Positions 2,514 through 60,810 of a DNA stretch of 64,000 nt are shown piece by piece; position 1 is the stretch's first letter, and each line of letters opens with the position of its first letter. The notes beneath the pieces are model-generated. The model saw only the letters and a program-made list of their open reading frames with translations. It was not told the DNA's origin and did not search any database. The stretch comes from an uncultured Candidatus Saccharibacteria bacterium (GTDB taxonomy: Bacteria > Patescibacteriota > Doudnabacteria > UBA920). A program made the translations under genes and the position numbers. Location of the stretch: positions 110,738-174,737 of the forward strand of contig CAYTCJ010000002.1 of the NCBI GenBank assembly GCA_964436545.1, written 5' to 3'.

Positions 2514-3113
2514 CTATTTTAACATTTGCCTTAACACTTCTGCCTCAATTCTGCAATCGGTGAGCGCATCGTGCCTGGAACCTAAATTTTTAATGTTATA
2601 TTTTTTTACCAAATCTTCCAAACTGAATCCGGTAAATTTCTTTTTATTAGTCAACTGATTTTTACTAGCGAGCACAGCAAAAAAATAAGCCCAGAGATTA
2701 AAAAAATGATAATCAAATTGCCATTTAAGCTTATTCTCTCGGTAAGCCTTCCGTAAAAAATCCATATCCATCGGACCCCCATAATTACACAAAATCACTT
2801 TTTGGGGATTAAATTTTTTATTAAAGGCTTTTAAGACTACGCCTAAAGCCGGGGCATGCTTTACCCATTCGGCTTTAATACCGTTGATGCGCATAGATTC
2901 TCTATTGCGATTCTGCCACCGGACTGACTTGGCAAAAGCATTAAAACACGCTTTTTCTTTTAAAGTCTGCTTGTCTAAAAGCACGCCGGCAATTTGAATA
3001 ATTTCATGCTTATTCACGTCCAAACCAGTCATTTCCAAATCTATAAGTAATAAGTCTTTGTTAAAATGTCCCGCGAAGCGGGATCCCGCTTCGCGGGACA
3101 TATTTTTTTTCAT
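2514..3113 (-). CDS. DEDDh-family 3'-5' exonuclease (DnaQ / Pol III epsilon-like)
   Basis: Exo I motif LLIDLEMTGLD. C-terminal HDALTDCRIEAEVL resembles Exo III (H-x4-D). The listed start at 3155 is probably too far upstream. Likely starts are ATG 3111-3113 or the ATG inside the 36-bp palindrome (3099-3101). Confidence 0.7.
   Translation of the reverse strand: MKKNMSREAGSRFAGHFNKDLLLIDLEMTGLDVNKHEIIQIAGVLLDKQTLKEKACFNAFAKSVRWQNRNRESMRINGIKAEWVKHAPALGVVLKAFNKKFNPQKVILCNYGGPMDMDFLRKAYRENKLKWQFDYHFFNLWAYFFAVLASKNQLTNKKKFTGFSLEDLVKKYNIKNLGSRHDALTDCRIEAEVLRQMLK
3066..3101. repeat. 36-bp perfect GC-rich palindrome ATGTCCCGCGAAGCGGGA|TCCCGCTTCGCGGGACAT, followed by T8
   Basis: Read directly. Each half is itself a hairpin (TCCCGC-GAA-GCGGGA). 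A central GGATCC is present. It sits in frame in the 5' end of the exonuclease ORF and encodes MSREAGSRFAGH. A related stem GTCCCGC-cata-GCGGGAC occurs at 33248-33265. Confidence 0.85.
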
Positions 3114-6732: not shown

Positions 6733-6759
6733 TTTCTCTAAATTCATAATTCATAATTC

Positions 6760-8265
6760 ATGATAAGAACTCGCTTTGCTCCCTCACCAACCGGCTTTGT
6801 TCATATTGGCTCCTTAAGAACGGCGCTGTTTTCTTTTTTGTTTGCCCGTCATCACCAAGGCACTTATGCCCTAAGAATTGAAGACACCGACCAAAACCGT
6901 TTTGTGGAAGGTTCGCTGGAAAATATGCTAAAAGTGTTTAGCCAAATGGGCATAAACTTTGATGAAGGCCCTTATCTGGAAAACGGCCACATTAAACAAA
7001 AAGGCGAGTTCGGCCCATATATTCAGTCGGAAAGAAAACACCAAGGTCTGTACCAAAAATATGCTAACGAGCTCCTTACTAACAAAAAAGCCTACTACTG
7101 TTTTTGCACCCCAGAACGTTTAGAGGAAATGCGCAAAGAGCAAACTGCCTTAAAAAAACCGCCTATGTACGACCGGCACTGTCGCCATTTACCCGAAGCT
7201 GAAATCCAACTCAAACTGCAAGAAATTCGCCAAGCAGGCAAAGAACCAGTAATCCGCTTTGCCATGCCCCTTACCGGCCAAACCGTCATTCACGATTTAA
7301 TTTACGGGGACATCACTTACGAAAATAAAATTTTAGATGACCAAGTGATTTTAAAATCCGACGGTTTTCCTACCTATCATTTAGCCGTGGTGGTAGATGA
7401 CCATCATATGCAAATTAGCCATGTTATTCGGGGCGAAGAATGGATCCCTTCCACACCCAAACATTTGCTAATTTATGAAGCATTAGGTTGGAAGCCCACT
7501 CAATTTGCACATTTGCCTTTAATTGTTAATGCCGACAAATCCAAGTTAAGCAAACGGCAAGGTGATGTCGCGGTAGAGGATTATATAAATAAAGGCTACT
7601 TGCCCGAAGCTTTAATTAATTTCATTGTCCTCTTGGGCTGGAATCCAAAAACCGAACAAGAACTCTTTTCCATTCAAGAATTAGTGGAACAATTCGACTT
7701 GGCCAAAATCAACAAATCGGGTGCGGTATTTGATTTAGTCAAACTTGATTGGATAAGCTCGCAATACTTACGTCGTTTAACCGGCCAAGACCTCGCTCAA
7801 AAACTTAAACCTTTCTGGCAACAAGCCGGAGTGGATGTAAGTAAATTTTCCGATGCCTACTTGGAAGCCATTGCCGAATTAGAAAAGGACCGGCTTAAAA
7901 AACTTTCCGAAATAGGGGAGAGGACACAATTTTTCTTTGCCCTACCCGAATACGAAGCCGAATTATTAGTCTGGAAAAAGGCCAATGCCCCCGACGCCAA
8001 AAATAAATTACTTGCCTTATGGGAATTATTTAAGCAAATGGATGAAAAATTATTGCCTACGCCCGCTAACGTTCAAACCGCTTTAGAAACTTTTATTACC
8101 CAAAATAATTTTGACAAGGGGAGTGTGCTATGGCCCTTAAGAGTGGCGTTAACCGGCAAAGAAAAATCTCCGCCACCTTTTGATGTGGCGAGTGTGTTAT
8201 CTTTGGGATTAGGAAAAACGGAAGTTTTAAACAGAATCCAAACAGCCATAAATAAGCTTAAATGA
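6760..8265 (+). CDS. gltX: Glutamyl-tRNA synthetase
   Basis: HIGH motif (APSPTGFVHIGSLRTALF), KLSKRQG (KMSKS), class I catalytic core. 501 aa. Confidence 0.9.
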   Translation: MIRTRFAPSPTGFVHIGSLRTALFSFLFARHHQGTYALRIEDTDQNRFVEGSLENMLKVFSQMGINFDEGPYLENGHIKQKGEFGPYIQSERKHQGLYQKYANELLTNKKAYYCFCTPERLEEMRKEQTALKKPPMYDRHCRHLPEAEIQLKLQEIRQAGKEPVIRFAMPLTGQTVIHDLIYGDITYENKILDDQVILKSDGFPTYHLAVVVDDHHMQISHVIRGEEWIPSTPKHLLIYEALGWKPTQFAHLPLIVNADKSKLSKRQGDVAVEDYINKGYLPEALINFIVLLGWNPKTEQELFSIQELVEQFDLAKINKSGAVFDLVKLDWISSQYLRRLTGQDLAQKLKPFWQQAGVDVSKFSDAYLEAIAELEKDRLKKLSEIGERTQFFFALPEYEAELLVWKKANAPDAKNKLLALWELFKQMDEKLLPTPANVQTALETFITQNNFDKGSVLWPLRVALTGKEKSPPPFDVASVLSLGLGKTEVLNRIQTAINKLK

Positions 8266-16357: not shown

Positions 16358-18070
16358 TTATTTCTTTACTTTCACCACGGCTTTCATAAACCCGGCAAAT
16401 AACGGATGCGGACTTAGCGGACGAGATTGGAATTCGGGATGAAACTGTGAGCCAATGAAAAAGGGGTGGTCTTTTAATTCAATAATTTCCACTAGTTTGC
16501 CGTCGGGCGTGGTGCCGGAAATAATTAAACCGGCGTTAACCAACTGTTCTCTAAATTCATTATTGAACTCATAGCGATGACGGTGCCTTTCGTTAATAAT
16601 CGGACTGCCGGTACTCTTTATAATCCCCGCTTCCAAGTAGGCCTTTTCCGTGTGTGTGCCTCTGGCAATTAAACACTCCCACCCACCTAAACGCATAGTC
16701 GCCCCATATTCACGTTTTAACAATTTCTTTTCTTGGTAAGGCATAATATGAATTACCGGAAAAGGAGTTTTGCCATCCACTTCCGTGGTGTTGGCATTTT
16801 TCAGTTTGGCCACATGCCTGGCAAACTCAATGGTAGCCATTTGCATACCATAACATAAACCCAAATAAGGAATGTTGTTTTCTCTGGCGTACTCAATTGT
16901 CTCTATCATACCTTCGGTTCCCCTACTCCCAAAACCACCGGGCACGACAATTCCATCGTAACTGTTTAAAACGGCTTTGGCACCTTTCTTCTCCACATCT
17001 AAACTGGAAATCCAGTGTAAATTGGCTTTTACATTATTTGCCCAAGCTCCATGTTTAATGGCTTCTACAACCGATATATACACATCGGAAAGTTTATAGG
17101 CGCCGGTTTCATAATATTTTCCCACTACGGCAATATTTACCGTATTGGTAGCCTCATTTAATTTAGTAATTTTATTGGCCAAATTTTCCCACTGCTTTAA
17201 ATCACGTTTTTTGGGTTTTAAATTGAATTTGGCTAAAATCTTATCGGTTAAACCTTGCTCGTCAAAACTTAAAGGCACTCGGTAAATACTGTCTACATTT
17301 GGAGCGGCAATAATATTTTCTGCCGGCACATTACAAGTCCAAGCCAAAGTTTCTTTTCGGCGGTCATCGATTTCATTTTCCGCTCGGGCAATTAAAAAAT
17401 CCGGTTGAATTCCGCTCCCAATTAATAGTCGAACCGAGGTTTGAGCCGGCTTGCTCTTCATTTCACCAATTGACGGCGGGGTGGGTAAATAAGCCACATG
17501 GATATGCACCACTTCACGACCGTCTCGGTATTTCATAATCCGGTTGGCTTCCATAAACAAAATATTTTGATACTCGCCCACCGTTCCCCCGATTTCCGCA
17601 ATCACAAAATCAGCTTGTCTTTCTTCCCCCGCCTTCTCCAGCCGAGCAATAATCTCCTCCGGCACATGCAAGGCCACTTCTACATCTTCGCCGTCATATT
17701 CAAAATTTCTTTCTTTCTGAATAATTTTTTGGTAAATTTGTCCATTGGTAACGTAATTAGAAGCGGATAAATCGGTATTCATAAACCGTTCATAATTGCC
17801 CACGTCTTGGTCGGTTTCCATCCCATCTTTGGTCACAAACACTTCCCCGTGTTCTTGGGGACGAATGGTACCGGCATCGACATTTAAGTAAGCGTCCATT
17901 TTTACCGGCGCCACCGTAAAACCGCGGGATTCCAGCAGGGTAGCCAAAGAGGCTGTAGTCACGCCTTTACCCACAGACGAAATTACTCCTCCGGAAATAA
18001 AAATAAATTTGGTGGCTAATTTTTTGGCTTTACGAGGCTGAATATGATAGGACATATAAACAATTTTCAA
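16358..18070 (-). CDS. pyrG: CTP synthase
   Basis: ISGGVISSVGKGVTTASLA P-loop region. Glutamine amidotransferase triad region (GLCYGMQ). The ORF track uses a TTG start. The ATG at 18053-18055 (MSYHIQ...) is more likely. Confidence 0.9.
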   Translation of the reverse strand: MKIVYMSYHIQPRKAKKLATKFIFISGGVISSVGKGVTTASLATLLESRGFTVAPVKMDAYLNVDAGTIRPQEHGEVFVTKDGMETDQDVGNYERFMNTDLSASNYVTNGQIYQKIIQKERNFEYDGEDVEVALHVPEEIIARLEKAGEERQADFVIAEIGGTVGEYQNILFMEANRIMKYRDGREVVHIHVAYLPTPPSIGEMKSKPAQTSVRLLIGSGIQPDFLIARAENEIDDRRKETLAWTCNVPAENIIAAPNVDSIYRVPLSFDEQGLTDKILAKFNLKPKKRDLKQWENLANKITKLNEATNTVNIAVVGKYYETGAYKLSDVYISVVEAIKHGAWANNVKANLHWISSLDVEKKGAKAVLNSYDGIVVPGGFGSRGTEGMIETIEYARENNIPYLGLCYGMQMATIEFARHVAKLKNANTTEVDGKTPFPVIHIMPYQEKKLLKREYGATMRLGGWECLIARGTHTEKAYLEAGIIKSTGSPIINERHRHRYEFNNEFREQLVNAGLIISGTTPDGKLVEIIELKDHPFFIGSQFHPEFQSRPLSPHPLFAGFMKAVVKVKK

Positions 18071-18073
18071 TAA

Positions 18074-18295
18074 TTAATTTTCAATTTTCAATAAATTAGT
18101 TTGAACTTTGTGTTTTTCCGGTAGAATAATTTCTACTTGATTTTCATTCAACTCTCTTTGCTCAGTTTCATAATTGCGAATTTGGACTAATACTGCCAAC
18201 GCTATTCCACTGGCCACCAAAACAAAAATTAAAATTAACAACAAACTTCTAATACGTTGGTTGGCTTGCAAGTAATTATCAAGATCGGTTGGCAT
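18074..18295 (-). CDS. Small single-TM protein (73 aa)
   Basis: One hydrophobic helix (LLLILIFVLVASGIALAVLV). It lies between pyrG and rplI on the same strand. Confidence 0.35.
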   Translation of the reverse strand: MPTDLDNYLQANQRIRSLLLILIFVLVASGIALAVLVQIRNYETEQRELNENQVEIILPEKHKVQTNLLKIEN

Positions 18296-21821: not shown

Positions 21822-21989
21822 AAAACAGTGTTAATTGGTCTTAACAATTCTCATTATAGCAAAAATTTAAAAACGGGTATTTTACTACAAAAATAAAAAT
21901 TTGTCAATCCTGCCATTTTTTAAGAGCCTTGTCTTTTTGGTCAGGTATGAAAAAATTATTATAGCAGGGCAAACTATACCCAAACCCTG

Positions 21990-22292
21990 CTACCAGCCCC
22001 AAGGAGGGCAAAATGAAATTTTGGATTTTTTGTATCGGGGTAGAAGTTTTTGGTCTGGCGCTTCGCGCCATGGCCTACGACTTCGGAGCGGAGGGTTGGA
22101 ACACCTTCCGCACCAACGGGGCGGTGGCAAACCACGTGGTTTGCAACTTTTTCCTCGCCCCAGCCGGCCTCTGGGCCGGCGCCATGTTGTGGATGGTCCG
22201 CCGACACTGGCGGTGACCACCACAAACGGCCGAATACAAAAACTCGGCCGTACCTTTAAGCATTATTTCCGCCTGAGAGCGGGTTTTTTATT
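21990..22292 (+). other. GC-rich island of about 300 bp made of consecutive perfect hairpins and ending in an intrinsic terminator (22269-22290)
   Basis: At least seven perfect stems (GGCGC-ttc-GCGCC, GCAAAC-CACGTG-GTTTGC, GCCGGCC-tctg-GGCCGGC, ACGGCCGA-n10-TCGGCCGT and others). All six frames are open. GC content is much higher than the genome. Confidence 0.5.
22013..22216 (+). CDS. Candidate 67-aa two-TM small protein with a strong Shine-Dalgarno sequence (AAGGAGGG, 5-nt spacer). Alternatively part of a structured RNA
   Basis: Strong RBS plus ATG. Two hydrophobic segments. A terminator lies downstream. It sits inside the hairpin-rich GC island. Confidence 0.3.
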   Translation: MKFWIFCIGVEVFGLALRAMAYDFGAEGWNTFRTNGAVANHVVCNFFLAPAGLWAGAMLWMVRRHWR

Positions 22293-22833
22293 TAACTACC
22301 CACAAAGCGCCGGAAAGAAACACATAAATACCTAAAGTATTCAGACAAAAAACTAAAAATAAAAACCGATACTTGGGCATATTACCAATACCCATAAGCC
22401 CAATACCAATTTCATCCGGCAACGGCAAAATAATAAAGATGGCACCTATAATGGGCATTAACCACCGCATCGCCCGAATTTTAAAAATTTTTCCCATTTC
22501 CAATTTAAAAAATTTTCCCGCCAACAACCGCCATTCTGCCCATAATCCGTGCTTTAAAAATCTTAAAATGTAATAATCGCTCACCATGGCCCCCAGCCCG
22601 CCAAAAACACTTAGAGAGAGCAAACTAAACATGTCGGTCATTTCATACAACATAAAAAATCCGGCCGGAGCGGTAAAGAAAGAAGCGGTAAACATACCGG
22701 AGACAAATATCCCCCCTACCCTTAATTCACCCGCCAACCTTGCCAAGGCATGAAAAACACCATAAGCTTCGCCTAAAATGCCCACTCCCAGCAACAGTAA
22801 AAATAATAAAGTATTGGGATAAGTTTTAATCAT
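22288..22833 (-). CDS. Integral membrane protein (181 aa, about 5 TM)
   Basis: Hydrophobic throughout. No family recognised. Overlaps the ATPase gene start by 8 nt. Confidence 0.5.
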   Translation of the reverse strand: MIKTYPNTLLFLLLLGVGILGEAYGVFHALARLAGELRVGGIFVSGMFTASFFTAPAGFFMLYEMTDMFSLLSLSVFGGLGAMVSDYYILRFLKHGLWAEWRLLAGKFFKLEMGKIFKIRAMRWLMPIIGAIFIILPLPDEIGIGLMGIGNMPKYRFLFLVFCLNTLGIYVFLSGALWVVK

Positions 22834-26891: not shown

Positions 26892-27035
26892 ATTTGTCCC
26901 TATAAATAAACCATATCCTTAAACCACATAGAACTCCTTTTTGTCCTTACTATGTCATTGTAATCCAATTATACCATAAATTGACTAACATTAAATATCC
27001 AGTTATGATGAATTTATGAGAATTATCATGAATTT

Positions 27036-27641
27036 ATGAAAAAAAATAGAGACTTGGAATTACTATATGAACTGGGTGCTTTACGGTTTATTCCACGAGC
27101 TTGGAAGCAGTTTTTTAATGCGGATTTTGAAAATTTAGCCGAACATCATTTCCGGGTGGCGTGGCTGGGAATGCTCTTGGCCAAAATGGAAAAACGAGGC
27201 GATGCCGGCAAAATTGTCCAAATGGCTTTAGTTCACGACATTGCGGAAAGTCGCACCGGCGATGCTCATGCCATTTCTCGGCAATACGTTAAACGTAACG
27301 AGCACTTGGGTGCCATGGATATGTTAAAAGACACACTTTTAGAACAAGATATGCTAAACCTGTGGCAAGAATACGAAGATCGCCACACTATTGAAGCCAA
27401 AATTGTTAAAGACGCCGATTGGTTAGATGTCGATTTGGAAATTAAAGAACAGTTAGCCAGAGGCCATGCGTCTTTAAGAGTGTGGATGCCCCAAAGAAAA
27501 TTGGTTTACGACAAATTTAATACCGCCTCAGCCAAAAAGCTCTTTAAGCTTATCCACCAATCCGACCCGTTTGATTGGCTCCTTCATGCCCGTTCGCGCT
27601 TTACCGAAGGCGATATGAAACCAAAACCAAACAAGAATTAA
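27036..27641 (+). CDS. HD-domain phosphohydrolase (YfbR-like 5'-deoxynucleotidase candidate)
   Basis: HD motif region HHFRVAWLGMLLA ... VHDIAESRTGD. 201 aa. Confidence 0.65.
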   Translation: MKKNRDLELLYELGALRFIPRAWKQFFNADFENLAEHHFRVAWLGMLLAKMEKRGDAGKIVQMALVHDIAESRTGDAHAISRQYVKRNEHLGAMDMLKDTLLEQDMLNLWQEYEDRHTIEAKIVKDADWLDVDLEIKEQLARGHASLRVWMPQRKLVYDKFNTASAKKLFKLIHQSDPFDWLLHARSRFTEGDMKPKPNKN

Positions 27642-27669
27642 GAAGTATGAATTAAGCATTAAGATAAAT

Positions 27670-31366: not shown

Positions 31367-31945
31367 CTATTTCTTTCTAACTTCGTTGGTAAGTTTAGAA
31401 GCCAAAGGCGACTGCTGGCCTGCATACTTATTGCCCAGTTTTTTTCTGTAAGGCACTTCTACCGGAGAGGAAACTTCCTCAAACGTAAACGCACAAATGC
31501 GCATACCGGGGTAAAGGGCCACGGGCATTACGCCTAAGTTCCCCAGTTCCATAGTGGGCTTACCCACCCACCCGGGATCAAAAATACTGGCAGTGCCGTG
31601 CACAATAATACCTAAACGGCCGAGCGATGAACGACCTTCAATTCGGCCCAATAAATCGTCAGCCAATTCCAAATTTTCCACAGTGGTAACTAAAGCAAAA
31701 TCTCCCGGTTGCATTACAAACGCTTCCCCCTTTTTTACCACAATTTCCTTCATTAGTTTGTCGGTATCCACCTTACCTTTTAAATCTATATAAGGATGGC
31801 TGGAATGTTTAAACACCCGAAAATTATTGCCTAAATGCAAATCTATAGAACACGAACCCAGTTGCTCCTTAAAATTCGGCTTAGGCGTAATTTTTATTCT
31901 ACCCTCTAACAGGGCTTTTTTTATATGCGTATCAGATAATATCAT
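31367..31945 (-). CDS. dcd: dCTP deaminase
   Basis: MILSDTHIKKALLEGRIKITP ... GSCSIDLHLG is the Dcd/dUTPase-fold signature. 192 aa. Confidence 0.85.
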   Translation of the reverse strand: MILSDTHIKKALLEGRIKITPKPNFKEQLGSCSIDLHLGNNFRVFKHSSHPYIDLKGKVDTDKLMKEIVVKKGEAFVMQPGDFALVTTVENLELADDLLGRIEGRSSLGRLGIIVHGTASIFDPGWVGKPTMELGNLGVMPVALYPGMRICAFTFEEVSSPVEVPYRKKLGNKYAGQQSPLASKLTNEVRKK

Positions 31946-32168
31946 AATTTTTTAATCCCCCCTCTTAGGGTAAGAGGGGGCTAGGGGGTGATATTGTTTA
32001 ATTCCAACCCTAAAATAATACACGAAAAAACCTTTCTTGACAAAATTTTCTCTGTGGATTAAAATAACCTAAATTATGAAATTCCAAAACCTTTCCAGCA
32101 TTATTAGCATTATTATTCCTCGCTTCAGGCAGTGGAAGAGTTTTTAATGCTTTAAATTAAATTCTCTG

Positions 32169-32200
32169 AAATCCCTGCCGTTAGGCAGGGATTTTTATTT
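32169..32200 (+). terminator. Intrinsic terminator (AAATCCCTGCC-gtta-GGCAGGGATTTTTATTT)
   Basis: Perfect stem plus T-tract inside a 1.7-kb region with no coding sequence. Confidence 0.6.
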
Positions 32201-32289
32201 TTATGGCTATATCATAAAAAAACAATCCATTAGTCCTATTGGTCATATAAATCTTATAAGACCTATATGACTTATATGACACAAACAAC

Positions 32290-32811
32290 CTTTAGACCGC
32301 CACCCCTTGCCCCCGAAGACTCGGGCGCAGAGAACATCGGCCTAAAAGGCCACTAAAAGGAGGATTTATGTTGGTGTTTCTGAAGATGGATGGGTACGTG
32401 AGTACCCAGGCGGGCCTCAATGCCCTCCAGGCCCAAGGGCTCCGGCCTGCGGGTCGCCAAGAAATCAGCGTCGCCCTAGACATGGGCGACAATGAAAAAA
32501 ACACTTATATGGTTTTTGCCAGACAGAAGGACTGGCAAACATCCTGCCCAGAGGCGTCAATCCGCCAATGGGAACCTACGCCGATCACAACGTGCCCGGT
32601 ATTGTACCGGGTTTGGATGGGAAATCCAGAGCCCCGAGAAATCCGGGAAATGTCGGTGGTGGGCGTGTGGCACGACCCCATATTTGTTGGGGTCAAGGAT
32701 GACTAACCGCGCGGGGAGGGGTGCAGAAAGATTTTGTATTTATAGGCCTTAAAACAGCCAACTAAAGCAAATTCTCTCTGCCCCCTCCCCGCAGAAAATT
32801 CTTTTTTTATC
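32290..32811 (+). other. GC-rich island of about 520 bp. Candidate structured RNA and/or foreign small gene
   Basis: GC content far above the flanks. Three or more frames are open on both strands. Multiple perfect hairpins. A 15-bp long-range stem GCGGGGAGGGGTGCAG / CTGCCCCCTCCCCGC (32710-32793) is followed by a T-run. Confidence 0.4.
32368..32706 (+). CDS. Candidate 112-aa ORF with a strong Shine-Dalgarno sequence (AAAGGAGGA, 4-nt spacer). May be spurious within a structured RNA
   Basis: Strong RBS plus ATG. GC-rich codons unlike the host genome. No recognisable domain. Confidence 0.25.
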   Translation: MLVFLKMDGYVSTQAGLNALQAQGLRPAGRQEISVALDMGDNEKNTYMVFARQKDWQTSCPEASIRQWEPTPITTCPVLYRVWMGNPEPREIREMSVVGVWHDPIFVGVKDD

Positions 32812-33012
32812 TTCTACCTTTTGACTCTAATTTTGCAGATATTATCCAACTATGGTATGGTATGAATACCTTAAACTTAGCATTCGGATTTGATTATTAC
32901 TTTTACTAATTAAATCCGAGTGCTAAGGGACCTAGCACTATTCAGCGAAGCCACAGGGTTTCCGGTTAGCCACTCTCCTCCAGCTAACCTGCTTAATAGC
33001 CCCCTGTGTGCC

Positions 33013-33042
33013 AAAAAAAATGGGGCGCTTACCGGTGCCCCA
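33013..33042 (-). terminator. Minus-strand intrinsic terminator (TGGGGCACCGGTAAGCGCCCCA + T8)
   Basis: Stem TGGGGC/GCCCCA with a 10-nt loop, followed on the minus strand by TTTTTTTT. Confidence 0.5.
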
Positions 33043-33184
33043 CTCTCAACTTTTGACAAAATTATTAAAATCCTATAAACTTTTTCTATGAAGCGATTAC
33101 AAACCAACTTAAGCCTTAACCTCCTTACCCTTACATACTTAAGGCGTAATTTGGTTTAGTTTTCAGTTAATACTTCTCTTTACC

Positions 33185-33216
33185 AAACCCCCGCCTTAAG
33201 GCGGGGGTTTTTTTAT
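33185..33216 (+). terminator. Plus-strand intrinsic terminator (AAACCCCCGCCTTAAGGCGGGGGTTTTTTT)
   Basis: Perfect 8-bp GC stem plus T7. The upstream ACUUAAGGCG (33139-33148) can pair with the 5' arm, giving an antiterminator-like alternative. Confidence 0.65.
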
Positions 33217-33425
33217 TTTACTGTAAACAGTAAAATAACCCTTCGTAGTCCCGCCATAGCGGGACGAAGTAGGGTAAATGATTTACCAAAGGAGGAAAAG
33301 TTAGTTGGTGGTCAGATTTTAGATTTTTAATTAAAAATGTTGGCTTTAAAATCAAATTTTAGGTTCTCCACAGAGTCGAACACTAAAATGATAAAAGTCT
33401 AAAATATGACCACCCAACAACAACC

Positions 33426-33460
33426 CAAAAAAATTTCTTCGGGCTTTAAGCCCGAAGACG
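33426..33460 (-). terminator. Minus-strand intrinsic terminator (CTTCGGGCTTAAAGCCCGAAG + T7)
   Basis: Perfect 8-bp stem followed on the minus strand by AAATTTTTTT. A second terminator about 115 nt downstream of the rplA terminator, delimiting a short GC-rich transcript candidate. Confidence 0.5.
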
Positions 33461-33521
33461 TATACATTCCCCGACAGGGGGATCCAGGTGTCCCCTGGCC
33501 AACCCTGTGGAACCGCCCTGT

Positions 33522-33547
33522 CCGGCGAGCCCCCGCTCGCCGGTTTT
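33522..33547 (+). terminator. Plus-strand hairpin plus T-run (CCGGCGAGC-cccc-GCTCGCCGG-TTTTT)
   Basis: Perfect 9-bp stem plus T5. Confidence 0.5.
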
Positions 33548-33573
33548 TCTTTTTATTAAAATGCCAAAAACAT

Positions 33574-33612
33574 GAAGACGGACTTCTGGGATTTTCCCAG
33601 AGGTCCGTCTTC
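33574..33612 (-). terminator. Terminator hairpin immediately downstream of rplA
   Basis: GAAGACGGACCTCTGGG-aaaat-CCCAGAAGTCCGTCTTC on the minus strand, followed by a U-rich tract. Confidence 0.55.
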
Positions 33613-33620
33613 AGATGGAC

Positions 33621-34325
33621 TTAGTAGATTTTCACTTTTATCCCCGGGCCCATAGAAGCATTCATGCTCATAGATACAATATATTGTCCTTTTAAAGATG
33701 CCGGCTTGGCCGATACAATCGCTTCGTGTAAGACTTTAAAATTTTCTTCCAAAGCCTTAGCTTTAAAATTGGTTTTGCCAATAATTTGGTGAATATTACC
33801 GCTATCATCATTTTTAAAATTTACCTTACCGCCGGCAATAGCCTTCACCATTTCCCCAATATTGGGTCCCACGGTACCGGTTTTGGGGTTAGGCATTACT
33901 CCTTTTGGCCCTAAAATTTTGGCAATCAGGGCTAATTTGGGCATTAAAGCCGGTTCAGCAATGGCAATATCAAACTCCACTTTCTCGGTTTCTTTAATTT
34001 TTTTAATTAAATCTTCCCCGCCTACCAAAACCGCACCAGCGTCTTTGGCTTCTTTTTCCTTACTTTCCGTAACAAAAGCCACCACGCGTTTTAATTTACC
34101 GGTGCCATGGGGTAAACTGGCCGTTCCGCGCACCGCTTGGTCTGTCTGCTTGGGGTCAATCCCCACTCTTACATGCACTTCCACCGAACCAACAAACTTG
34201 GTGTTTGCAGTTTGCTTGGCTAAGGCGACTGCTTCACTTAACGAATAAACTTTATTACTATCTACCAAACTGTTGTTGGCTTTGACTCTTTTGGCTAACT
34301 TAGACATTGTTTCCTTCCTCATCAC
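33621..34325 (-). CDS. rplA: Ribosomal protein L1
   Basis: L1 signature throughout. The likely true start is ATG 34305-34307 (MSKLAKR), preceded by GAGGAAGGAAACA, one of the few clear Shine-Dalgarno sequences in the window. Confidence 0.9.
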   Translation of the reverse strand: MMRKETMSKLAKRVKANNSLVDSNKVYSLSEAVALAKQTANTKFVGSVEVHVRVGIDPKQTDQAVRGTASLPHGTGKLKRVVAFVTESKEKEAKDAGAVLVGGEDLIKKIKETEKVEFDIAIAEPALMPKLALIAKILGPKGVMPNPKTGTVGPNIGEMVKAIAGGKVNFKNDDSGNIHQIIGKTNFKAKALEENFKVLHEAIVSAKPASLKGQYIVSMSMNASMGPGIKVKIY

Positions 34326-42272: not shown

Positions 42273-43334
42273 TTAATTTTGACGAGGAATCCGGCCAAAA
42301 TCCAACGGAATCAAAATATCCTTTAAATTTTCCAAGTCTTCCACCACCACCCCTGCGCCTCTGGCCACGGAAGTTAAAGGATCTTCGGCAATAATTACCG
42401 GCATGGCTGTGGCTTCAGAAACTAAAGTATCTATACCTCTTAGCAAACTCCCCCCACCGGCAAAAACAATTCCCCGTTTTAACACGTCAGAGGTTAATTC
42501 CGGTGGAATTTCTTCCACTACCGCTTTCACTCCATTAACAATGGCCCTTAAGGCCGGTAAAAGCGCATTGCGAATATCAGTATCGGAAACCGTAATTTCT
42601 TTCGGCAAGCCGGTTAATAAATCTCTGCCTCGAATTTGTGTATACAGTGGCTCCTTAAGCCCATAAGCTGAACCAATTTGAATTTTAGCTTCTTCGGCAC
42701 TTCTTTCTCCAATCAGTAAATTAAAATTTTCTCTCACATACTGCATAATATTCTCGTTCATTTCATCGCCTGCCACGCGCAAAGATTTAGACAAAACAAT
42801 GCCCCCTAAAGAAATTAAGGCGATTTCCGTAGTACCACCCCCAATATCTACCACCATAGAGCCGGTTGGATCTTGCACGGGCAAACGCGCTCCAATGGCT
42901 GCCGCCATAGGTTCCTCAATTAAAAACGCCTTGGTGGCGCCGGCATTAATTGCCGCGTCCACCACAGCTCGTTTTTCCACTTCGGTTACTCCGGAAGGGA
43001 TTCCAATCACCACTCTCGGTCTGCGCAAAAAACTTAAAGTCTGACTGTGAACTTTATCTATAAAATACCGAAGCATCGCTTCGGTTACCTCAAAATCGGA
43101 AATCACGCCATCTACCAACGGCCTCGTGGCCACAATATGCTGAGGCGTTCTGCCCACCATTTTTTTTGCCTCCACCCCAATCGCCAAAATTTGCTTGGTC
43201 CGCTGATTAATAGCCACCACGCTGGGCTCATTAATAACAATCCCTTTACCTTTCACATATACTAAAGTATTGGCCGTGCCCAAATCGATCCCAATATCTT
43301 TGCTGAATTTTTGATAGATTTTATCAAATAGCAT
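42273..43334 (-). CDS. mreB: Rod shape-determining protein MreB (actin homolog)
   Basis: DIGIDLGTANTLVYV phosphate-1, DIGGGTTEIA phosphate-2, adenosine motif GIVFAGGGSLL. 353 aa. Confidence 0.9.
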   Translation of the reverse strand: MLFDKIYQKFSKDIGIDLGTANTLVYVKGKGIVINEPSVVAINQRTKQILAIGVEAKKMVGRTPQHIVATRPLVDGVISDFEVTEAMLRYFIDKVHSQTLSFLRRPRVVIGIPSGVTEVEKRAVVDAAINAGATKAFLIEEPMAAAIGARLPVQDPTGSMVVDIGGGTTEIALISLGGIVLSKSLRVAGDEMNENIMQYVRENFNLLIGERSAEEAKIQIGSAYGLKEPLYTQIRGRDLLTGLPKEITVSDTDIRNALLPALRAIVNGVKAVVEEIPPELTSDVLKRGIVFAGGGSLLRGIDTLVSEATAMPVIIAEDPLTSVARGAGVVVEDLENLKDILIPLDFGRIPRQN

Positions 43335-47792: not shown

Positions 47793-47945
47793 AACAATAT
47801 GATACTAATCTACAAATTATTACTAATAATGCAAATAATACTAATTTTGATCTTTTAAAATTCTCTATGCAGACCAATAAGCTCTTGTTTCGCGAGGTAT
47901 TCGTATAATTTGCATCATTCGCATGCATTAGTATATTAGTATCGC

Positions 47946-52594: not shown

Positions 52595-54133
52595 TTAGGC
52601 TAATTTTTGTTTCAACAGTTCATTAATTTTCTGCGGATTCCCCTTCCCTTTCAGCTCCTTCATAGTTTGTCCCACCAAAAACCCAAAACTTTTTTGCTCT
52701 CCGCCTTTATAATCCGAAACGGCTTTTGGATTATCTGTCATTACCTTATCAATTGCCAATGCAATCACTGCATCATCACTTACTTGTTTTAAACCCAAAT
52801 CCTCCACAATGTTGGAAGGATCGCCACCTTTTTCAAACATTACTTTAAACACTTGTTTGCCGGCAGAACCGGAGATTTCACCGGTTTGAATCATTTTTAA
52901 AAGTTCGGCAAAATTTTCCGCATCCACTCGTGAATCCGCCGGGTTTAAAAGCTGTTGATTTAACAAAGCGCTAAATTCCCCCAAACACCAATTCACGGCT
53001 TGTTTGATAATTGCCTGTCTGCCTGTAGGGGAAGCCATTGGCTTCCCGTTTTCTGGGCGGGCAATGCCCGCCCCTACATCTACATTCATCCATTCATCAA
53101 CCTCACTCACTACATTTTCAAAAAAAGTTGCCATTTCTTTCCAAGCAATTAAATTTTCCACATCGGCCTTAGGCAAACCGTATTCATTTAAAAATCTCTG
53201 TCTTTTTTGTGCGGGCAACTCCGGCATTTTACTTTTAAGCTCGCCTAAATACTCTTGAGTAAAATGTAAAATCGGCAAGTCAGGATCCGGAAAATACCGG
53301 TAGTCATTTGCCTCTTCTTTGGTTCTTTGTTCTACGGTACAACCTTGTTTTTCATCCCACCCCATAGTTACTTGCTTAGGCATGCCACCGGACTTTAAAA
53401 TTTCTATTTGGCGGGCAATTTCGTAATCGATGGCATTTTGCGCAAACCGAAAAGAATTAATATTTTTTACTTCCACTTTATATTTAGGCAAAGTGGTTTC
53501 TCCGGGTTTTCTCACGGAAATACTGGGTTCACAGCGCATAATGCCTTTTTCCATATCACAAGACGAGGCACCTAAATACTTTACAATATTTTTTATTTCC
53601 GATAAAAACGCGTAAGCTTCCTCTCCACTACTTATTTCCGGCTCCGTAACAATTTCGAGTAGCGGAGTGCCGGCACGATTATAATCTACCAAAGAATACG
53701 GCAAACCTTCGGGGTGAATATTCTTTCCCGCATCTTCTTCCAAATGAGCACGGGTAATATTTACTCTTTTTACTTTCCCGTTGACTTCAATATCTAAAAA
53801 ACCACTCCTAGCAATTGGTTTATCAAATTGGGAAATTTGGTAGCCTTTAGGAAGGTCGGGATAAAAATAGTGCTTACGGTCAAACTTGCTCCACTCGTCT
53901 ATTTGGCAATTTAAAGCCAACCCCACCATAGCGCTAAGCCTGATGGCCTCTTTATTAGCCACAGGCAAAGTACCAGGCTGACCTGTGTTGACCTCGTCAA
54001 TATCTACATTCGGATCTGCTTGGTCCGGATTATTTGGCGCTATGCCAAACATCTTAGATTTTGTCGCAAGCTGAATGTGGATTTCAAAGCCAATAACTGG
54101 CTCATACTCGGTTGATGCTGGATATGTTTTCAT
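52595..54133 (-). CDS. gatB: Glu-tRNA(Gln)/Asp-tRNA(Asn) amidotransferase subunit B
   Basis: GatB N-terminal catalytic region (PVIGFEIHIQL) and C-terminal YqeY-like tail. 512 aa. Confidence 0.9.
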   Translation of the reverse strand: MKTYPASTEYEPVIGFEIHIQLATKSKMFGIAPNNPDQADPNVDIDEVNTGQPGTLPVANKEAIRLSAMVGLALNCQIDEWSKFDRKHYFYPDLPKGYQISQFDKPIARSGFLDIEVNGKVKRVNITRAHLEEDAGKNIHPEGLPYSLVDYNRAGTPLLEIVTEPEISSGEEAYAFLSEIKNIVKYLGASSCDMEKGIMRCEPSISVRKPGETTLPKYKVEVKNINSFRFAQNAIDYEIARQIEILKSGGMPKQVTMGWDEKQGCTVEQRTKEEANDYRYFPDPDLPILHFTQEYLGELKSKMPELPAQKRQRFLNEYGLPKADVENLIAWKEMATFFENVVSEVDEWMNVDVGAGIARPENGKPMASPTGRQAIIKQAVNWCLGEFSALLNQQLLNPADSRVDAENFAELLKMIQTGEISGSAGKQVFKVMFEKGGDPSNIVEDLGLKQVSDDAVIALAIDKVMTDNPKAVSDYKGGEQKSFGFLVGQTMKELKGKGNPQKINELLKQKLA

Positions 54134-54152
54134 AATTCATTATTCATACTTC

Positions 54153-55634
54153 TTAATTCATCTCCGGATGCTTTTTATGCCACGCGGTGACTTGCTGGTA
54201 AGCATAACCTAAATTAAATATGGTTTGCTCGCCCCACTGGGGGCCAATAATTTGGAGACCCACGGGCAATTCTATTTCTGCGCCATCGCTAGGTTTACCC
54301 ATTCCGCAAGGCACGGACACAGCCGGAAGTCCGGCTAAAGAAGAAGGAATATTTAATTGATCGGCAATATACCCAAACAAAGGATTATTTTTAGCATTCC
54401 CAATTTTTACCGCAACATTTGGACTAGCGGGACATACCAAAGCATCAACCTGTTTAAAGACTTCTGCAAATTCATTTACAATTAAGCGTCGCACTTTTTG
54501 TGCCCGTTTATAATACGCATCATAATAACCCGCGGACAATACGTACGTACCGGTAAGAATTCGGCGTTTAGCTTCGTCCCCAAAACCTTCGGCACGGCTT
54601 TTGGCATAAACTTCATAAAGATTTTTGGCTTCACGAGAGGAATGCCCATAACGAATCCCATCGTACCGCATTAAATTAGAAGAAACTTCACTGGGACAAA
54701 TTATGGCATAAACCAAAGAACCGTATTTCGTGTTAGGCAAACTCACTTCTGAAACTTTAGCGCCTAATTTTTCTAATTCCTTAACCGCGGTTAAGACTGC
54801 ATTTTTTACCCCCGGCTCCATACCTTCCACAAAATATTCTTTGGGAATTCCTAGTCTCAAACCTTGAATATCTGCTGTTAAATTTTGAGTATAAGTTGGC
54901 ACCGGCACATCACCGGTAGTAGAATCGTGAGTATCTTTGCCGGAAATAATTTCAGCTAATTTTGCCAAATCTTCCACCGAATAAGCCACAGCGCCCGGAC
55001 AATCCAAAGAACTACCCATGGCAATAATGCCGTTTCTGGACACCCGACCATAGGTAGGCTTCCAGCCACTAATCCCACAAAGTGAAGAAGGTTGCCTAAT
55101 GCTTCCACCGGTTTCGGTAGCGGTTGCCCAAGGTGCCAAACCTCCTGCCACAGCCGATGTAGAACCACCACTACTACCACCCGGAATTCTGCTAATATCC
55201 CACGGATTTTTGGAAGCTCCAAAAGCGGAAGTTTCCGTACTGCTCCCATGAGCAAATTCATCTAAATTGGTTTTACCCAATAACACGGCTTTTTGCTCTC
55301 TTATTTTTTTTGTAACTTGACCTTCATAAGGAGGTAAATAATTTTCTAAAATTTTACTGGCAGCTGTGGTTTTTACTCCTTTGGTTAAAAACAAATCTTT
55401 GGAAGCATAAGGGATTCCGCACAAAAAAGGGTTTTCTCCCCCGCTGGCCATATATTCATCGGCTTCTGTAGCCTGTTTTAAAGCTTCTGCTTCACAAACC
55501 GTAATAAAGGAATTCAACTCGGTATCGTATTTTCTCACGCGCGCTAAAAAATACTTCGTCAATTCCACAGAAGAAACTTTTTTCTCATCTAATAACTTTC
55601 GCAGTTCAGTGAGTGATAAATATTCAAAATTCAT
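54153..55634 (-). CDS. gatA: Glu-tRNA(Gln) amidotransferase subunit A (amidase signature)
   Basis: Amidase signature GGSSGGSTSAVAGG and Ser-cisSer-Lys triad context. 493 aa. Confidence 0.9.
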   Translation of the reverse strand: MNFEYLSLTELRKLLDEKKVSSVELTKYFLARVRKYDTELNSFITVCEAEALKQATEADEYMASGGENPFLCGIPYASKDLFLTKGVKTTAASKILENYLPPYEGQVTKKIREQKAVLLGKTNLDEFAHGSSTETSAFGASKNPWDISRIPGGSSGGSTSAVAGGLAPWATATETGGSIRQPSSLCGISGWKPTYGRVSRNGIIAMGSSLDCPGAVAYSVEDLAKLAEIISGKDTHDSTTGDVPVPTYTQNLTADIQGLRLGIPKEYFVEGMEPGVKNAVLTAVKELEKLGAKVSEVSLPNTKYGSLVYAIICPSEVSSNLMRYDGIRYGHSSREAKNLYEVYAKSRAEGFGDEAKRRILTGTYVLSAGYYDAYYKRAQKVRRLIVNEFAEVFKQVDALVCPASPNVAVKIGNAKNNPLFGYIADQLNIPSSLAGLPAVSVPCGMGKPSDGAEIELPVGLQIIGPQWGEQTIFNLGYAYQQVTAWHKKHPEMN

Positions 55635-55697
55635 AATTAGCGTTTAGCGTTTAGCGTTTAGCGTTTAGGCTAAATCCTAATCGCTACCGACTAAAAG

Positions 55698-60005: not shown

Positions 60006-60201
60006 ATCAATTCAATATTAGAAATTAGAAATTCTGAATATCACTTTACTTAAGTAAAGTATATCATATCCCCAAAATCTGTCAAGAAACTTTCACTAAA
60101 ATGTGCTATAATGTAAATAATGTGGTTAATTAATTATTAATTGTCATAGACAATACTTATTGCATCAGTGTAATCTGTGTTATCTGTGTATCTGTGAATA
60201 T

Positions 60202-60753: not shown

Positions 60754-60810
60754 TTAGTAGTGGGTAGCATTTAGCTAAACGCTAATCGCTAAACCCTAAA
60801 CGCTTTTACC

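What the first reader, a model, noticed from the sequence alone, without database searches (positions are those of the whole stretch)
32290..32811. Second GC-rich island with a strong Shine-Dalgarno sequence and a 112-aa orphan ORF inside a 1.7-kb gene desert
This is the same phenomenon as at 21990-22292. There is a sharp GC jump, multi-frame openness on both strands and perfect hairpins. A 15-bp long-range stem GCGGGGAGGGGTGCAG/CTGCCCCCTCCCCGC encloses an AT-rich loop and precedes a T-run. An AAAGGAGGA-4nt-ATG opens a 112-aa ORF with no recognisable domain. Two such islands within about 10 kb of each other, each with a canonical RBS rare elsewhere in the window, suggest a shared origin. They could be a foreign gene class, a family of structured RNAs or an inserted element.
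Basis: seen in the sequence. Interest (0 to 1): 0.55.

Follow-up and report, generated by a model that had tools for sequence, protein, structure and literature searches.

The report
Hairpin-rich orphan small-protein gene
The GC-rich island is a real but uncharacterised 112-amino-acid protein gene, found in only a few related uncultured bacteria. Unusually for this genome, it has a strong ribosome-binding site and a messenger RNA packed with selected hairpins.

Summary
Region 32290-32811 is one of the two most GC-rich spots in the 64-kb window (0.57 against 0.386).

It carries AAGGAGG, then ATG, then a 112-aa ORF (32368-32706). After that come an 82-nt hairpin (32711-32792) and a T-run.

The ORF is a genuine gene. 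It has syntenic orthologues at 78% and 35% identity. Only its own frame shows purifying selection (dN/dS 0.34). All indels are in frame.

The mRNA is abnormally structured even with the protein and codon usage held fixed (z -6.6; six perfect hairpins against 1.3 expected). None of 51 long genes in the window has a Shine-Dalgarno motif.

The island at 22013-22216 (a 67-aa ORF) shares all these properties but is not homologous. The two are therefore the same kind of unit, not a shared origin.

One relative (L008) carries a different small ORF between the same conserved flanks. Those non-coding flanks are more conserved than the neighbouring genes.

Function remains unknown.

The parts
32037..32200 (+). 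Upstream conserved module ('unit A'). It has a TTGACA-17-TAAAAT promoter and an RNA of about 125 nt. That RNA contains ATTATTAGCATTATTATT (codons IISIII of a 23-aa ORF) and an invariant AGGCAGTGGAA. It ends in an intrinsic terminator at 32168-32195 plus a T-run. It may be a leader or attenuator for what follows. Its link to ORF112 is inferred only from conserved adjacency.
   Evidence: The promoter and terminator come from the scan. The blocks are invariant in 5 copies across 4 genomes. In L007 the reading frame of AGGCAGTGGAA is shifted, so that block is constrained at the RNA level (read).
32242..32280 (.). Array of 9-nt units (GTCATATAA / ATCTTATAA / GACCTATAT / GACTTATAT) that also reads as inverted half-sites. 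It forms the conserved left flank of the variable slot. It is probably part of a promoter or operator.
   Evidence: TRF finds a period of 9 with 2.9 copies. A pattern search finds 6 overlapping matches here, against 0.8 expected in the window. The array is conserved in L002 and partly conserved in L008 and L007.
32283..32367 (+). Conserved 5' UTR. It holds a 26-nt block (CAAACAACCTTTAGACCGCCACCCCT) identical in L002, hairpin 32309-32326, and hairpin GGCC-TAAAA-GGCC at 32339-32351. Predicted folds pair the upstream pyrimidine block with the SD.
   Evidence: Alignments are. The consensus fold is and the individual folds. In L007 the second hairpin is AGCC/GGCU, so the pair is kept despite a change. 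Start-region MFE is -12.4 kcal/mol, against -5.8 +/- 3.4 for 51 ordinary genes.
32357..32363 (+). Shine-Dalgarno sequence AAGGAGG, 4 nt before the ATG.
   Evidence: It is one of only three AAGGAGG-plus-start sites in 64 kb. None of 51 long ORFs has an SD core.
32368..32706 (+). ORF112, a protein-coding gene of an uncharacterised family with three clusters (P0001, P0002, P0006). GC1/2/3 is 0.59/0.42/0.65. It contains six perfect local hairpins.
   Evidence: Orthologues. dN/dS is 0.34 (Fisher p 0.0004), and only frame +1 has pN/pS below 0.6. Indels are in frame. mRNA structure z is -6.4 to -6.6. No family hits.
32711..32792 (+). Long conserved hairpin in the 3' UTR. The outer clamp is GCGGGGAGGGG/CCCCTCCCCGC, the inner stem is GCAGAAAGA/TCTCTCTGC, and the apical region is AT-rich and conserved. 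It forms the right flank of the variable slot. It acts as a terminator-like element or a 3' stabiliser.
   Evidence: The fold gives z -6.5. It is about 95% identical in L002 and L008, although L008 has a different ORF upstream. The inner stem is conserved in L007, with one pair covarying: G-C in L007, A-U in L002 and L008, and A.C in the window (read).
32802..32808 (+). Run of seven T, 9 nt after the long hairpin.
   Evidence: The terminator scan did not call it, because the loop exceeds 8 nt and the run is offset from the stem.

Best explanation
Region 32290-32811 is a self-contained small gene. It consists of a structured 5' UTR, a strong Shine-Dalgarno site, a 112-aa coding sequence and a long conserved 3' hairpin.

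Shown:
- The ORF encodes a real protein under purifying selection. The family is known from only three sequence clusters, all from related uncultured bacteria and all at the same place between dcd and rplA.
- Its mRNA carries far more stable hairpins than its protein sequence and codon usage require. The high GC, including GC3, is largely a selected RNA-structure property rather than a leftover of foreign origin.
- The surrounding genome initiates translation without SD sequences, from AU-rich, weakly folded start regions.

Inferred:
- Because this mRNA is tightly folded, including around its start, it needs a strong SD to recruit ribosomes. The 5' UTR, which can pair with the SD, makes translation conditional.
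- The hairpins and the 3' stem make the transcript long-lived.
- The protein is a small cytoplasmic alpha/beta binding module, possibly with a compact C-type-lectin/Link-like fold. Its ligand is unknown.
- The gene sits in a replaceable slot between conserved non-coding modules.
For: Coding status:
- P0002 is 78% identical and P0006 is 35% identical over the full length. BLASTP gives 1e-13, and the profile gives E 2.4e-6 against 1.8 billion representatives.
- All copies are syntenic next to the 3' end of rplA.
- dN/dS is 0.34 (p 0.0004), while the other five frames give 0.6-1.16.
- Indels are multiples of 3.
- GC1>GC2<GC3.
- dS is 0.41, close to dcd at 0.36 and rplA at 0.44.

Structured mRNA:
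- z is -6.4 against dinucleotide shuffles and -6.6 against synonymous-codon shuffles. For L002 the values are -4.7 and -5.0.
- 37 control gene segments give a mean of -0.70, sd 1.14 and minimum -2.9.
- There are 6-8 perfect hairpins against 1.3 expected.
- Substitutions between the window and L002 are depleted in predicted stems. The odds ratio is 0.38 (p 0.001), and the effect also holds at codon position 3. It is absent from dcd, rplA and Mem_trans.

SD-poor genome: 0 of 51 long ORFs have an SD core. Start-region MFE is -12.4 against -5.8 +/- 3.4.

Slot: L008 keeps both flanks but has an unrelated small ORF between them.
Against: - There are no expression or proteomic data.
- Only three sequence clusters are known. 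One close relative (L008) lacks the gene, so it is dispensable.
- Of 22 predicted pairs that changed between the window and L002, 17 are broken and only 1 is compensatory. Structure conservation therefore rests on retained local hairpins and substitution depletion, not on covariation.
- The distant orthologue L007 has only weak excess structure (z -1.7 to -1.8). Heavy folding is thus a trait of the window/L002 clade, not of the family.
- The AF2 model is low-confidence, and no sequence profile supports a lectin-like fold.
- The canonical cysteines of C-type-lectin-like domains are absent.
- SD sequestration by the 5' UTR is only a prediction, with z -2.7, -3.4 and -1.0.
- The T-run is offset 9 nt from the stem, so termination there is not assured.
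Confidence: 0.7

Rival explanations
1. The island is a dual-function RNA. Besides encoding the protein, the hairpin-dense transcript or its conserved 3' hairpin acts in trans as a regulatory RNA or as a protein-binding scaffold. Selection on structure would reflect that second job rather than mRNA stability or translation control.
For: Structure is in excess beyond coding needs. Substitutions are depleted in stems. The 3' hairpin, including its apical sequence, is about 95% conserved even where the ORF is replaced. The island sits among other sRNA-like units.
Against: No target or partner is identifiable, and there is no Rfam family. Long-range pairs are not conserved and there is almost no covariation. 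L007 lacks the excess structure.
Confidence: 0.12
2. The island is a horizontally acquired or mobile cassette. It would be a foreign gene that arrived with its own SD and GC-rich composition, inserted between conserved modules that act as a recombination or expression platform.
For: GC and GC3 are far above the genome's values, and the SD is atypical for this genome. In L008 the homologous slot (32259-32710) holds a different SD-led small ORF. L008 also has a 230-aa ORF inserted between duplicated halves of unit A.
Against: No relatives were found in 5.8 billion proteins outside this lineage, nor in phages, plasmids, viral contigs or GTDB genomes. dS equals that of the neighbours. The outgroup L007 has the orthologue in the same place, still GC-rich. 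That argues for long vertical residence with GC maintained by selection. No integrase or attC-like R'/R'' motifs were seen in the spacer.
Confidence: 0.12
3. The island is a non-coding structured RNA and the 112-codon ORF is a by-product of high GC content.
For: Folding z-scores are very negative on both strands. Stops are few in several frames. No protein family matches.
Against: Purifying selection is specific to one frame. All indels are in frame, and a 35%-identical full-length protein orthologue exists whose nucleotide hairpins are not conserved. The SD and ATG are conserved in all three lineages.
Confidence: 0.04
4. ORF112 is a target (variable protein) of a diversity-generating retroelement with a C-type-lectin fold.
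Against: There is no template-repeat-like copy of any part of the island in the 64 kb. Differences from L002 are spread along the ORF, and the C-terminal 25 residues are nearly invariant. There is no Asn-codon-rich variable region.
Confidence: 0.02

Closest known systems
Lineage-restricted 'hypothetical' small proteins of uncultured (CPR-type) bacteria
   Same: It is short, matches no Pfam or NCBIfam family, is confined to a few related metagenome genomes, and evolves several times faster than its neighbours (dN/dS 0.34 against 0.04-0.10).
   Different: It combines a strong SD in an otherwise SD-less genome with GC3 25 points above background. Its excess of mRNA hairpins survives synonymous-shuffle controls.
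Compact C-type-lectin-like / Link-module fold (for example the Bdellovibrio Bd2740 C-terminal domain, PDB 8oks, and the TSG-6 Link module, PDB 1o7b)
   Different: No sequence-profile match was found. The conserved disulfide cysteines and the WIGL-type motif are absent. There is no signal peptide, and the protein stands alone rather than forming the tip of a larger adhesin. The model confidence is low (pLDDT 53.5).
Rare SD-led genes in genomes that generally lack SD sequences (for example rpsU in Bacteroidia; from my own knowledge, not tested here)
   Same: A handful of genes keep a perfect SD while the rest of the genome initiates translation without one. That implies special translational control.
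   Different: The gene is not a ribosomal protein, and no link to the anti-SD sequence or to bS21 has been shown. The status of the anti-SD in this organism's 16S rRNA is unknown, because the window contains no rRNA.
Dual-function or highly structured mRNAs (RNAIII/hld, SgrS/SgrT, type I toxin mRNAs; from my own knowledge)
   Same: A small ORF is embedded in an unusually stable, hairpin-rich transcript. The SD region can be sequestered by the 5' UTR.
   Different: ORF112 is not hydrophobic or toxin-like. No antisense or base-pairing partner was identified. The structure is spread through the coding sequence itself.
Intrinsic terminators and 3' stabiliser hairpins
   Same: A GC-rich stem is followed by a T-run at the 3' end of the gene.
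   Different: The hairpin is 82 nt long and has a conserved apical region of about 35-50 nt. The T-run is offset by 9 nt. The element is more conserved than the neighbouring protein genes and is retained when the upstream ORF is swapped.

Membership tests
Bona fide protein-coding gene | ORF retained in orthologous loci of diverged genomes | tested here: met
   P0002 (78% identical; loci L002, L003, L004) and P0006 (35% identical; locus L007) sit at the syntenic site. The ORF is absent from L008.
Bona fide protein-coding gene | Purifying selection specific to the annotated frame, with in-frame indels | tested here: met
   dN/dS is 0.34 (p 0.0004). Other frames give pN/pS of 0.6-1.16. There is a 3-nt indel against L002, and indels of +3, -6, -6 and -1 codons against L007.
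Bona fide protein-coding gene | Evidence of translation | not testable with these tools
   No Ribo-seq or proteomic data are available.
Known protein family (Pfam / NCBIfam / PHROG / PADLOC / PDB sequence) | Significant profile match | tested here: not met
   No hits at E up to 1 for all three family members. The best PDB sequence match has E 2.5.
C-type-lectin-like / Link-module fold | Significant structural match to fold members | tested here: inconclusive
C-type-lectin-like / Link-module fold | Conserved disulfide-forming cysteine pairs and hydrophobic-core motifs (WIGL-type) | tested here: not met
   Only one cysteine (C76, in CPVLY) is invariant among the three sequences, and there is no WIGL-like motif.
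Curated structured RNA family (Rfam 15) | Covariance-model hit at the gathering score | tested here: not met
   There are no hits in the window or in L002, L007 and L008. Sub-threshold hits in 31900-33700 fall on terminators outside the island.
Structured functional RNA (generic) | Thermodynamic stability beyond composition and coding constraints | tested here: met
   z is -6.4 against dinucleotide shuffles and -6.6 against synonymous shuffles, while control genes give -0.7 +/- 1.1.
Structured functional RNA (generic) | Compensatory base-pair changes across homologues | tested here: not met
   Within the CDS there is 1 compensatory change, 4 one-sided changes that keep the pair, and 17 broken pairs among 22 changed pairs. 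Covariation is seen only in the 3' hairpin's inner stem and in 5' UTR hairpin 2.
Canonical intrinsic terminator (for 32711-32808) | GC-rich stem with a short loop, immediately followed by a U-tract | tested here: inconclusive
   The stem is strong. However, the apical region is about 40-50 nt and the T7 run starts 9 nt after the stem. The scan did not call it.
Diversity-generating retroelement target | A template repeat near-identical to a variable region, with adenine-specific differences | tested here: not met
   No second copy of any part of 32200-32830 exists in the window. The variation pattern is not VR-like. The presence of a reverse transcriptase was not tested.
Recently transferred foreign gene | Relatives in other taxa or mobile elements, and divergence out of step with neighbours | tested here: not met
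   No relatives exist outside the lineage. dS of 0.41 matches the neighbours at 0.36-0.44. The atypical GC and SD are the only supporting features.
Same family as the island at 21990-22292 | Detectable sequence similarity (nucleotide, protein or six-frame) | tested here: not met
   The best blastn hit is 10 nt with E 0.16. blastp gives E 0.065 over 24 aa. tblastx gives nothing significant.

The most novel reading that the evidence does not exclude
In this SD-independent genome, a small set of genes (ORF112, ORF67 and perhaps others) may form a distinct expression class. Their mRNAs would be GC-rich and deliberately hairpin-dense, and translated only through a rare perfect SD that the 5' UTR can mask. 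They would sit in swappable slots between ultra-conserved non-coding modules (leader unit A, the long 3' hairpin and neighbouring sRNA-like units). Together these would amount to a previously undescribed 'structured-mRNA cassette' system for conditional or long-lived expression of accessory small proteins.
Probability: 0.2. Interest if true: 0.65.

Novelty: new member of a known kind. Interest (0 to 1): 0.38.

Why it matters
This resolves a suspicious GC island into a real, previously unclassified small-protein family.

It also documents a clean natural contrast inside one genome. About 50 SD-less genes have unfolded, AU-rich start regions. Two SD-led genes have mRNAs selected, at synonymous sites, to be densely folded.

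That makes the locus a compact test case for two questions. One is how translation initiation mode and mRNA structure co-evolve in reduced genomes of uncultured bacteria. The other is how small accessory genes are exchanged between conserved regulatory modules.

The surrounding spacer also holds several candidate new RNAs. They are more conserved than the ribosomal protein gene next to them.

Tried and rejected
Searches that found nothing:
- Rfam at the gathering score on the window and on three related loci, and a permissive E-value scan of 31900-33700. The permissive scan gave only terminator look-alikes outside the island.
- tRNA and tmRNA scan.
- Pfam, PHROGs, NCBIfam and PADLOC on all family members.
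- PDB sequence profile.
- tblastn against phages, which gave only E of at least 0.2 to terminases and was judged chance, and against plasmids, which gave nothing.
- Viral contigs by protein pattern.
- GTDB genome contigs by protein pattern and by a unit A DNA pattern.
- Metagenome contigs by protein pattern.
- BFVD fold search.
- Accession search in the literature for the source samples. The taxon was therefore not established.

Leads followed and dropped:
- A 17-base pattern from the long hairpin hit four viral contigs. On inspection these were unrelated coding sequence with no matching 3' arm, so they were rejected as chance.
- The first AF2 model, built from 2 sequences, had pLDDT 43.6 and was not used.
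- The afdb50 fold library was unavailable.
- Homology between islands A and B was rejected.
- The DGR idea was rejected because there is no repeat.
- An integron attC idea for the long hairpin was dropped. There is no GTTRRRY or RYYYAAC pair and no integrase in the spacer. This was by inspection only.
- An anti-SD sRNA idea for unit B (loop CCUCCU) was weakened, because L002 and L007 have CCUUCU.
- The other GC-elevated, low-z window at 42750-43150 is simply the mreB-like gene, not a third island.
- A 300-nt z-score scan of the whole window timed out. It was repeated with 200-nt windows.

Full report
**1. The observation**

The island is real. GC in 300-nt windows rises from 0.31-0.35 to 0.567 at 32300-32599. 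The whole window is 0.386 GC. Only this island and the one at 21901-22350 exceed 0.52.

The sequence shows AAGGAGG at 32357-32363, ATG at 32368 and a 112-codon ORF ending at 32706.

A long hairpin spans 32711-32792. Its outer arms are GCGGGGAGGGG(T)GCAG and CTGC-CCCCTCCCCGC. It has one bulged T, an energy of -47.3 kcal/mol and z -6.5. A T7 run follows, but 9 nt after the stem.

The dcd-rplA spacer (31946-33620) is 1,675 nt with no other long ORF.

'Multi-frame openness' is modest. The other frames carry 2-5 stops, against 4.65 expected for this composition.

An independent assembly (L001) is 100% identical over 31968-33586, so the island is not a chimera.

**2. It is a protein-coding gene**

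A search of 5.8 billion proteins found one close relative, P0002 (113 aa, 78% identical). A profile search of 1.8 billion representatives added P0006 (102 aa, E 2.4e-6, full length). Pairwise BLASTP of P0006 against the window protein gives 35% identity and E 1e-13.

All three lie at the same place.
- L002 has thyA, folA, Mem_trans, dcd, the ORF and then rplA, as in the window.
- The short contig L007 has the ORF facing the 3' end of rplA.

Selection between the window and L002:
- dN/dS is 0.34 (Fisher p 0.0004).
- dS is 0.41, similar to dcd (0.36) and rplA (0.44).
- As a control, the same nucleotides read in the other five frames give pN/pS of 0.60-1.16.

All indels are in frame. GC by codon position is 0.59/0.42/0.65.

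No Pfam, PHROG, NCBIfam, PADLOC or PDB-sequence match exists for any member. There is no Rfam hit in the window or in the related loci and no tRNA. No relatives were found in phages, plasmids, viral contigs or GTDB genomes.

**3. The mRNA is abnormally structured, and this is selected**

The CDS folds with z -6.4 against dinucleotide shuffles, and L002 gives -4.7. Thirty-seven 339-nt segments of ordinary genes in the window give a mean of -0.70, sd 1.14 and minimum -2.9.

I then held the protein sequence and codon usage fixed by permuting synonymous codons. The native sequence is still far more stable: z -6.6 for the window and -5.0 for L002. It has 6-8 perfect hairpins against about 1.3 expected, and 0 of 200 shuffles reach that number. 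dcd and rplA give z -1.4 and -0.6.

Substitutions between the window and L002 are depleted in predicted paired positions.
- The counts are 26 of 223 paired against 30 of 116 unpaired positions (odds ratio 0.38, p 0.001).
- The effect also holds at third codon positions (p 0.03).
- No such effect appears in dcd, rplA or Mem_trans.

Caveats:
- Among 22 pairs that changed, 17 are broken and only one is compensatory. What is conserved is the set of local hairpins, whose loops vary freely. A global fold is not conserved.
- The distant orthologue L007 shows only weak excess structure (z -1.7 to -1.8).
- L007's GC is still elevated: 0.50-0.535 against 0.31-0.37 in its flanks, with GC3 of 0.49.

**4. 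Why the strong SD**

None of 51 ORFs of at least 150 aa in the window has GGAGG, AGGAG or GAGGA in positions -20 to -1. Their upstream regions are AT-rich, and many have a TATAAT-like box a few bases before the ATG.

AAGGAGG followed by a start codon occurs only at 22001, 32357 and 33289.

Start regions (-30 to +33) of the 51 genes fold at -5.8 +/- 3.4 kcal/mol. ORF112 folds at -12.4 and ORF67 at -16.0.

My inference rests on established knowledge that SD-less initiation depends on unstructured start regions. On that basis, these folded mRNAs need a strong SD.

Predicted folds in all three lineages pair the SD with an upstream pyrimidine block around two small hairpins. One of those hairpins (GGCC/GGCC) becomes AGCC/GGCU in L007. 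The statistical support is modest.

**5. The protein**

AF2 with the three sequences gives pLDDT 53.5 and the element order beta-alpha-beta-alpha-beta, a long loop, then three beta strands.

The Foldseek hits are the same fold but not significant. Indels between orthologues fall in the predicted long loop. The canonical cysteines and motifs are absent, and there is no signal peptide.

I treat 'small binding module with a compact lectin-like fold' as a lead, not a result. There is no DGR-type repeat in the window.

**6. Context: a modular spacer and a replaceable slot**

Identity between the window and L002:

| Stretch | Identity |
|---|---|
| ORF (32346-32695) | 83% |
| Non-coding 32696-33295 | 93% (557 of 600) |
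| 32846-33045 | 97% (194 of 200) |

For comparison, rplA is 92.6% identical, and synonymous sites of neighbouring genes differ at about 30%.

A third relative, L008, was found through the unit A motif. It has no ORF112 but keeps both flanks: the 9-mer array on the left and the long hairpin on the right, the latter about 95% identical. About 268 nt carrying a different, very basic SD-led small ORF lie between them.

L008 also has a 230-aa ORF between a full unit A and a promoterless copy of unit A's 3' half.

L007 is the outgroup, judged from rplA similarity by inspection. Because L007 has ORF112, the gene is old in the lineage and was replaced in L008.

The inner stem of the long hairpin (GCAGARAGA/TCTYTCTGC) is conserved in L007. 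One pair covaries: G-C in L007, A-U in L002 and L008, and A.C in the window.

**7. The other island**

ORF67 (22013-22216) also has syntenic orthologues at 75% identity, one with an in-frame deletion.
- dN/dS is 0.26-0.35.
- GC3 is 0.72.
- Synonymous-shuffle z is -3.4, -5.1 and -2.6.
- It has the most folded start region of all genes tested.

It shares no sequence similarity with island B. The two islands are therefore two non-homologous members of one expression style.

**8. Verdict**

This is a real, uncharacterised small-protein gene with an unusually structured, SD-dependent mRNA. It sits in a variable slot of a highly conserved non-coding spacer.

It is not a known ncRNA, not phage-derived, and not homologous to the first island. 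Its function is unknown.

Interest is moderate. The accompanying features, listed under things noticed in passing, may deserve their own follow-up.

Noticed in passing
window 32037-32200 (also L002 3187-3330, L007 188-358, L008 2925-2765 and 2004-1900 on the minus strand): 'Unit A' comprises a consensus promoter, an RNA of about 125 nt and an intrinsic terminator. ATTATTAGCATTATTATT (Ile-Ile-Ser-Ile-Ile-Ile in a short ORF) and AGGCAGTGGAA are invariant in five copies from four genomes. In L007 a 1-nt indel shifts the frame of the second block, so that block is constrained at the RNA level. AGGCAGTGGA can pair with the 5' arm of the terminator. In L008 the unit directly precedes a 230-aa ORF. 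It is a possible Ile leader-peptide attenuator or a new cis-regulatory leader.
   Followed up: partly
window 32872-33050: This block of about 180 nt is 97% identical to L002, which is more than rplA. It contains four hairpins. L008 keeps them through compensatory and register-shifting changes. One loop, CUCUCCUCC, is invariant. A -10-like box lies just upstream (32858-32868). On the minus strand there is a terminator-like hairpin plus T8 (33041-33012). There is no Rfam match. It is a candidate new small RNA.
   Followed up: partly
window 33053-33215: 'Unit B' comprises a TTGACA-17-TAAACT promoter, a long imperfect hairpin (33100-33160) and a terminator (33185-33210). The 23-codon ORF inside it is broken after 4 codons in L008 while the nucleotides are conserved. 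L002 shows an A-U to G-C compensatory pair. It is therefore an sRNA rather than a peptide gene. The loop carries CCUCCU (anti-SD-like) in the window and L008, but CCUUCU in L002 and L007.
   Followed up: partly
window 33238-33278; L002 3392-3447: This is a REP-like hairpin, CCCTTCGTAGnCCCGCnnnAGCGGGnCGAAGTAGGGTAA, in which the bases either side of the inner CCCGC/GCGGG stem covary (T..A in the window, C..G in L002). It is single-copy in the window. L002 has an extra copy between unit A and the ORF, and L008 lacks it.
   Followed up: partly
window 33286-33321: AAAGGAGG is followed by a 5-codon mini-ORF (TTG GTG GTC AGA TTT TAG). It is conserved in L002 and L008 and is the third of only three SD-plus-start sites in the window. 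Its purpose is unknown.
   Followed up: no
window 33349-33389; L008 about 3012-3052: A 41-nt element, AAATTTTAGGTTCTCCACAGAGTCGAACACTAAAA, lies near slot 3 in the window. In L008 it lies inverted at the other end of the spacer, between dcd and unit A, at 92.7% identity. This hints at rearrangement or a small mobile element.
   Followed up: no
window 33406-33555: This is a third variable slot. The start context GTCTAAAATATGACCAMC and the terminator CCGGCGAG...CTCGCCGG+T are conserved in all four genomes. The ORF body between them differs completely: 72, 49, 42 and 58 aa. Only L002 and L008 share a C-terminal W(A/V)(S/G)ARC. Relative to L002, the window has a 31-nt deletion that removes the stop codon.
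   Followed up: partly
window-wide, e.g. 6741-6761, 27003-27039, 27633-27664, 54129-54161, 55637-55668, 60164-60196, 60774-60804, 18061-18092, 47802-47845: Many genes are preceded, right up to the start codon, by 3-5 tandem copies of a 7-9-nt unit. The unit differs from gene to gene (AATTCAT, AAGAATT, TTCATAA, TTAGCGT, GCTAAAC, ATCTGTG, CAATTTT...). At least 10 of 51 long ORFs show this. Combined with the complete lack of SD motifs, it may be a lineage-specific initiation or promoter signal.
   Followed up: partly
window 22013-22216: ORF67 of the first island is a conserved 67-aa hydrophobic protein, probably with two membrane helices. Its dS against L005 and L006 (0.44-0.48) is more than twice that of the adjacent 181-aa gene (0.19). 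It therefore evolves faster even at synonymous sites.
   Followed up: partly
L008 2049-2741 (minus strand): A 230-aa ORF has a PRPP-binding-like motif (LLITEYIETGRTM) but no Pfam or PADLOC hit. It is inserted between a complete unit A and a duplicated 3' half of unit A. The window and L002 lack it.
   Followed up: partly
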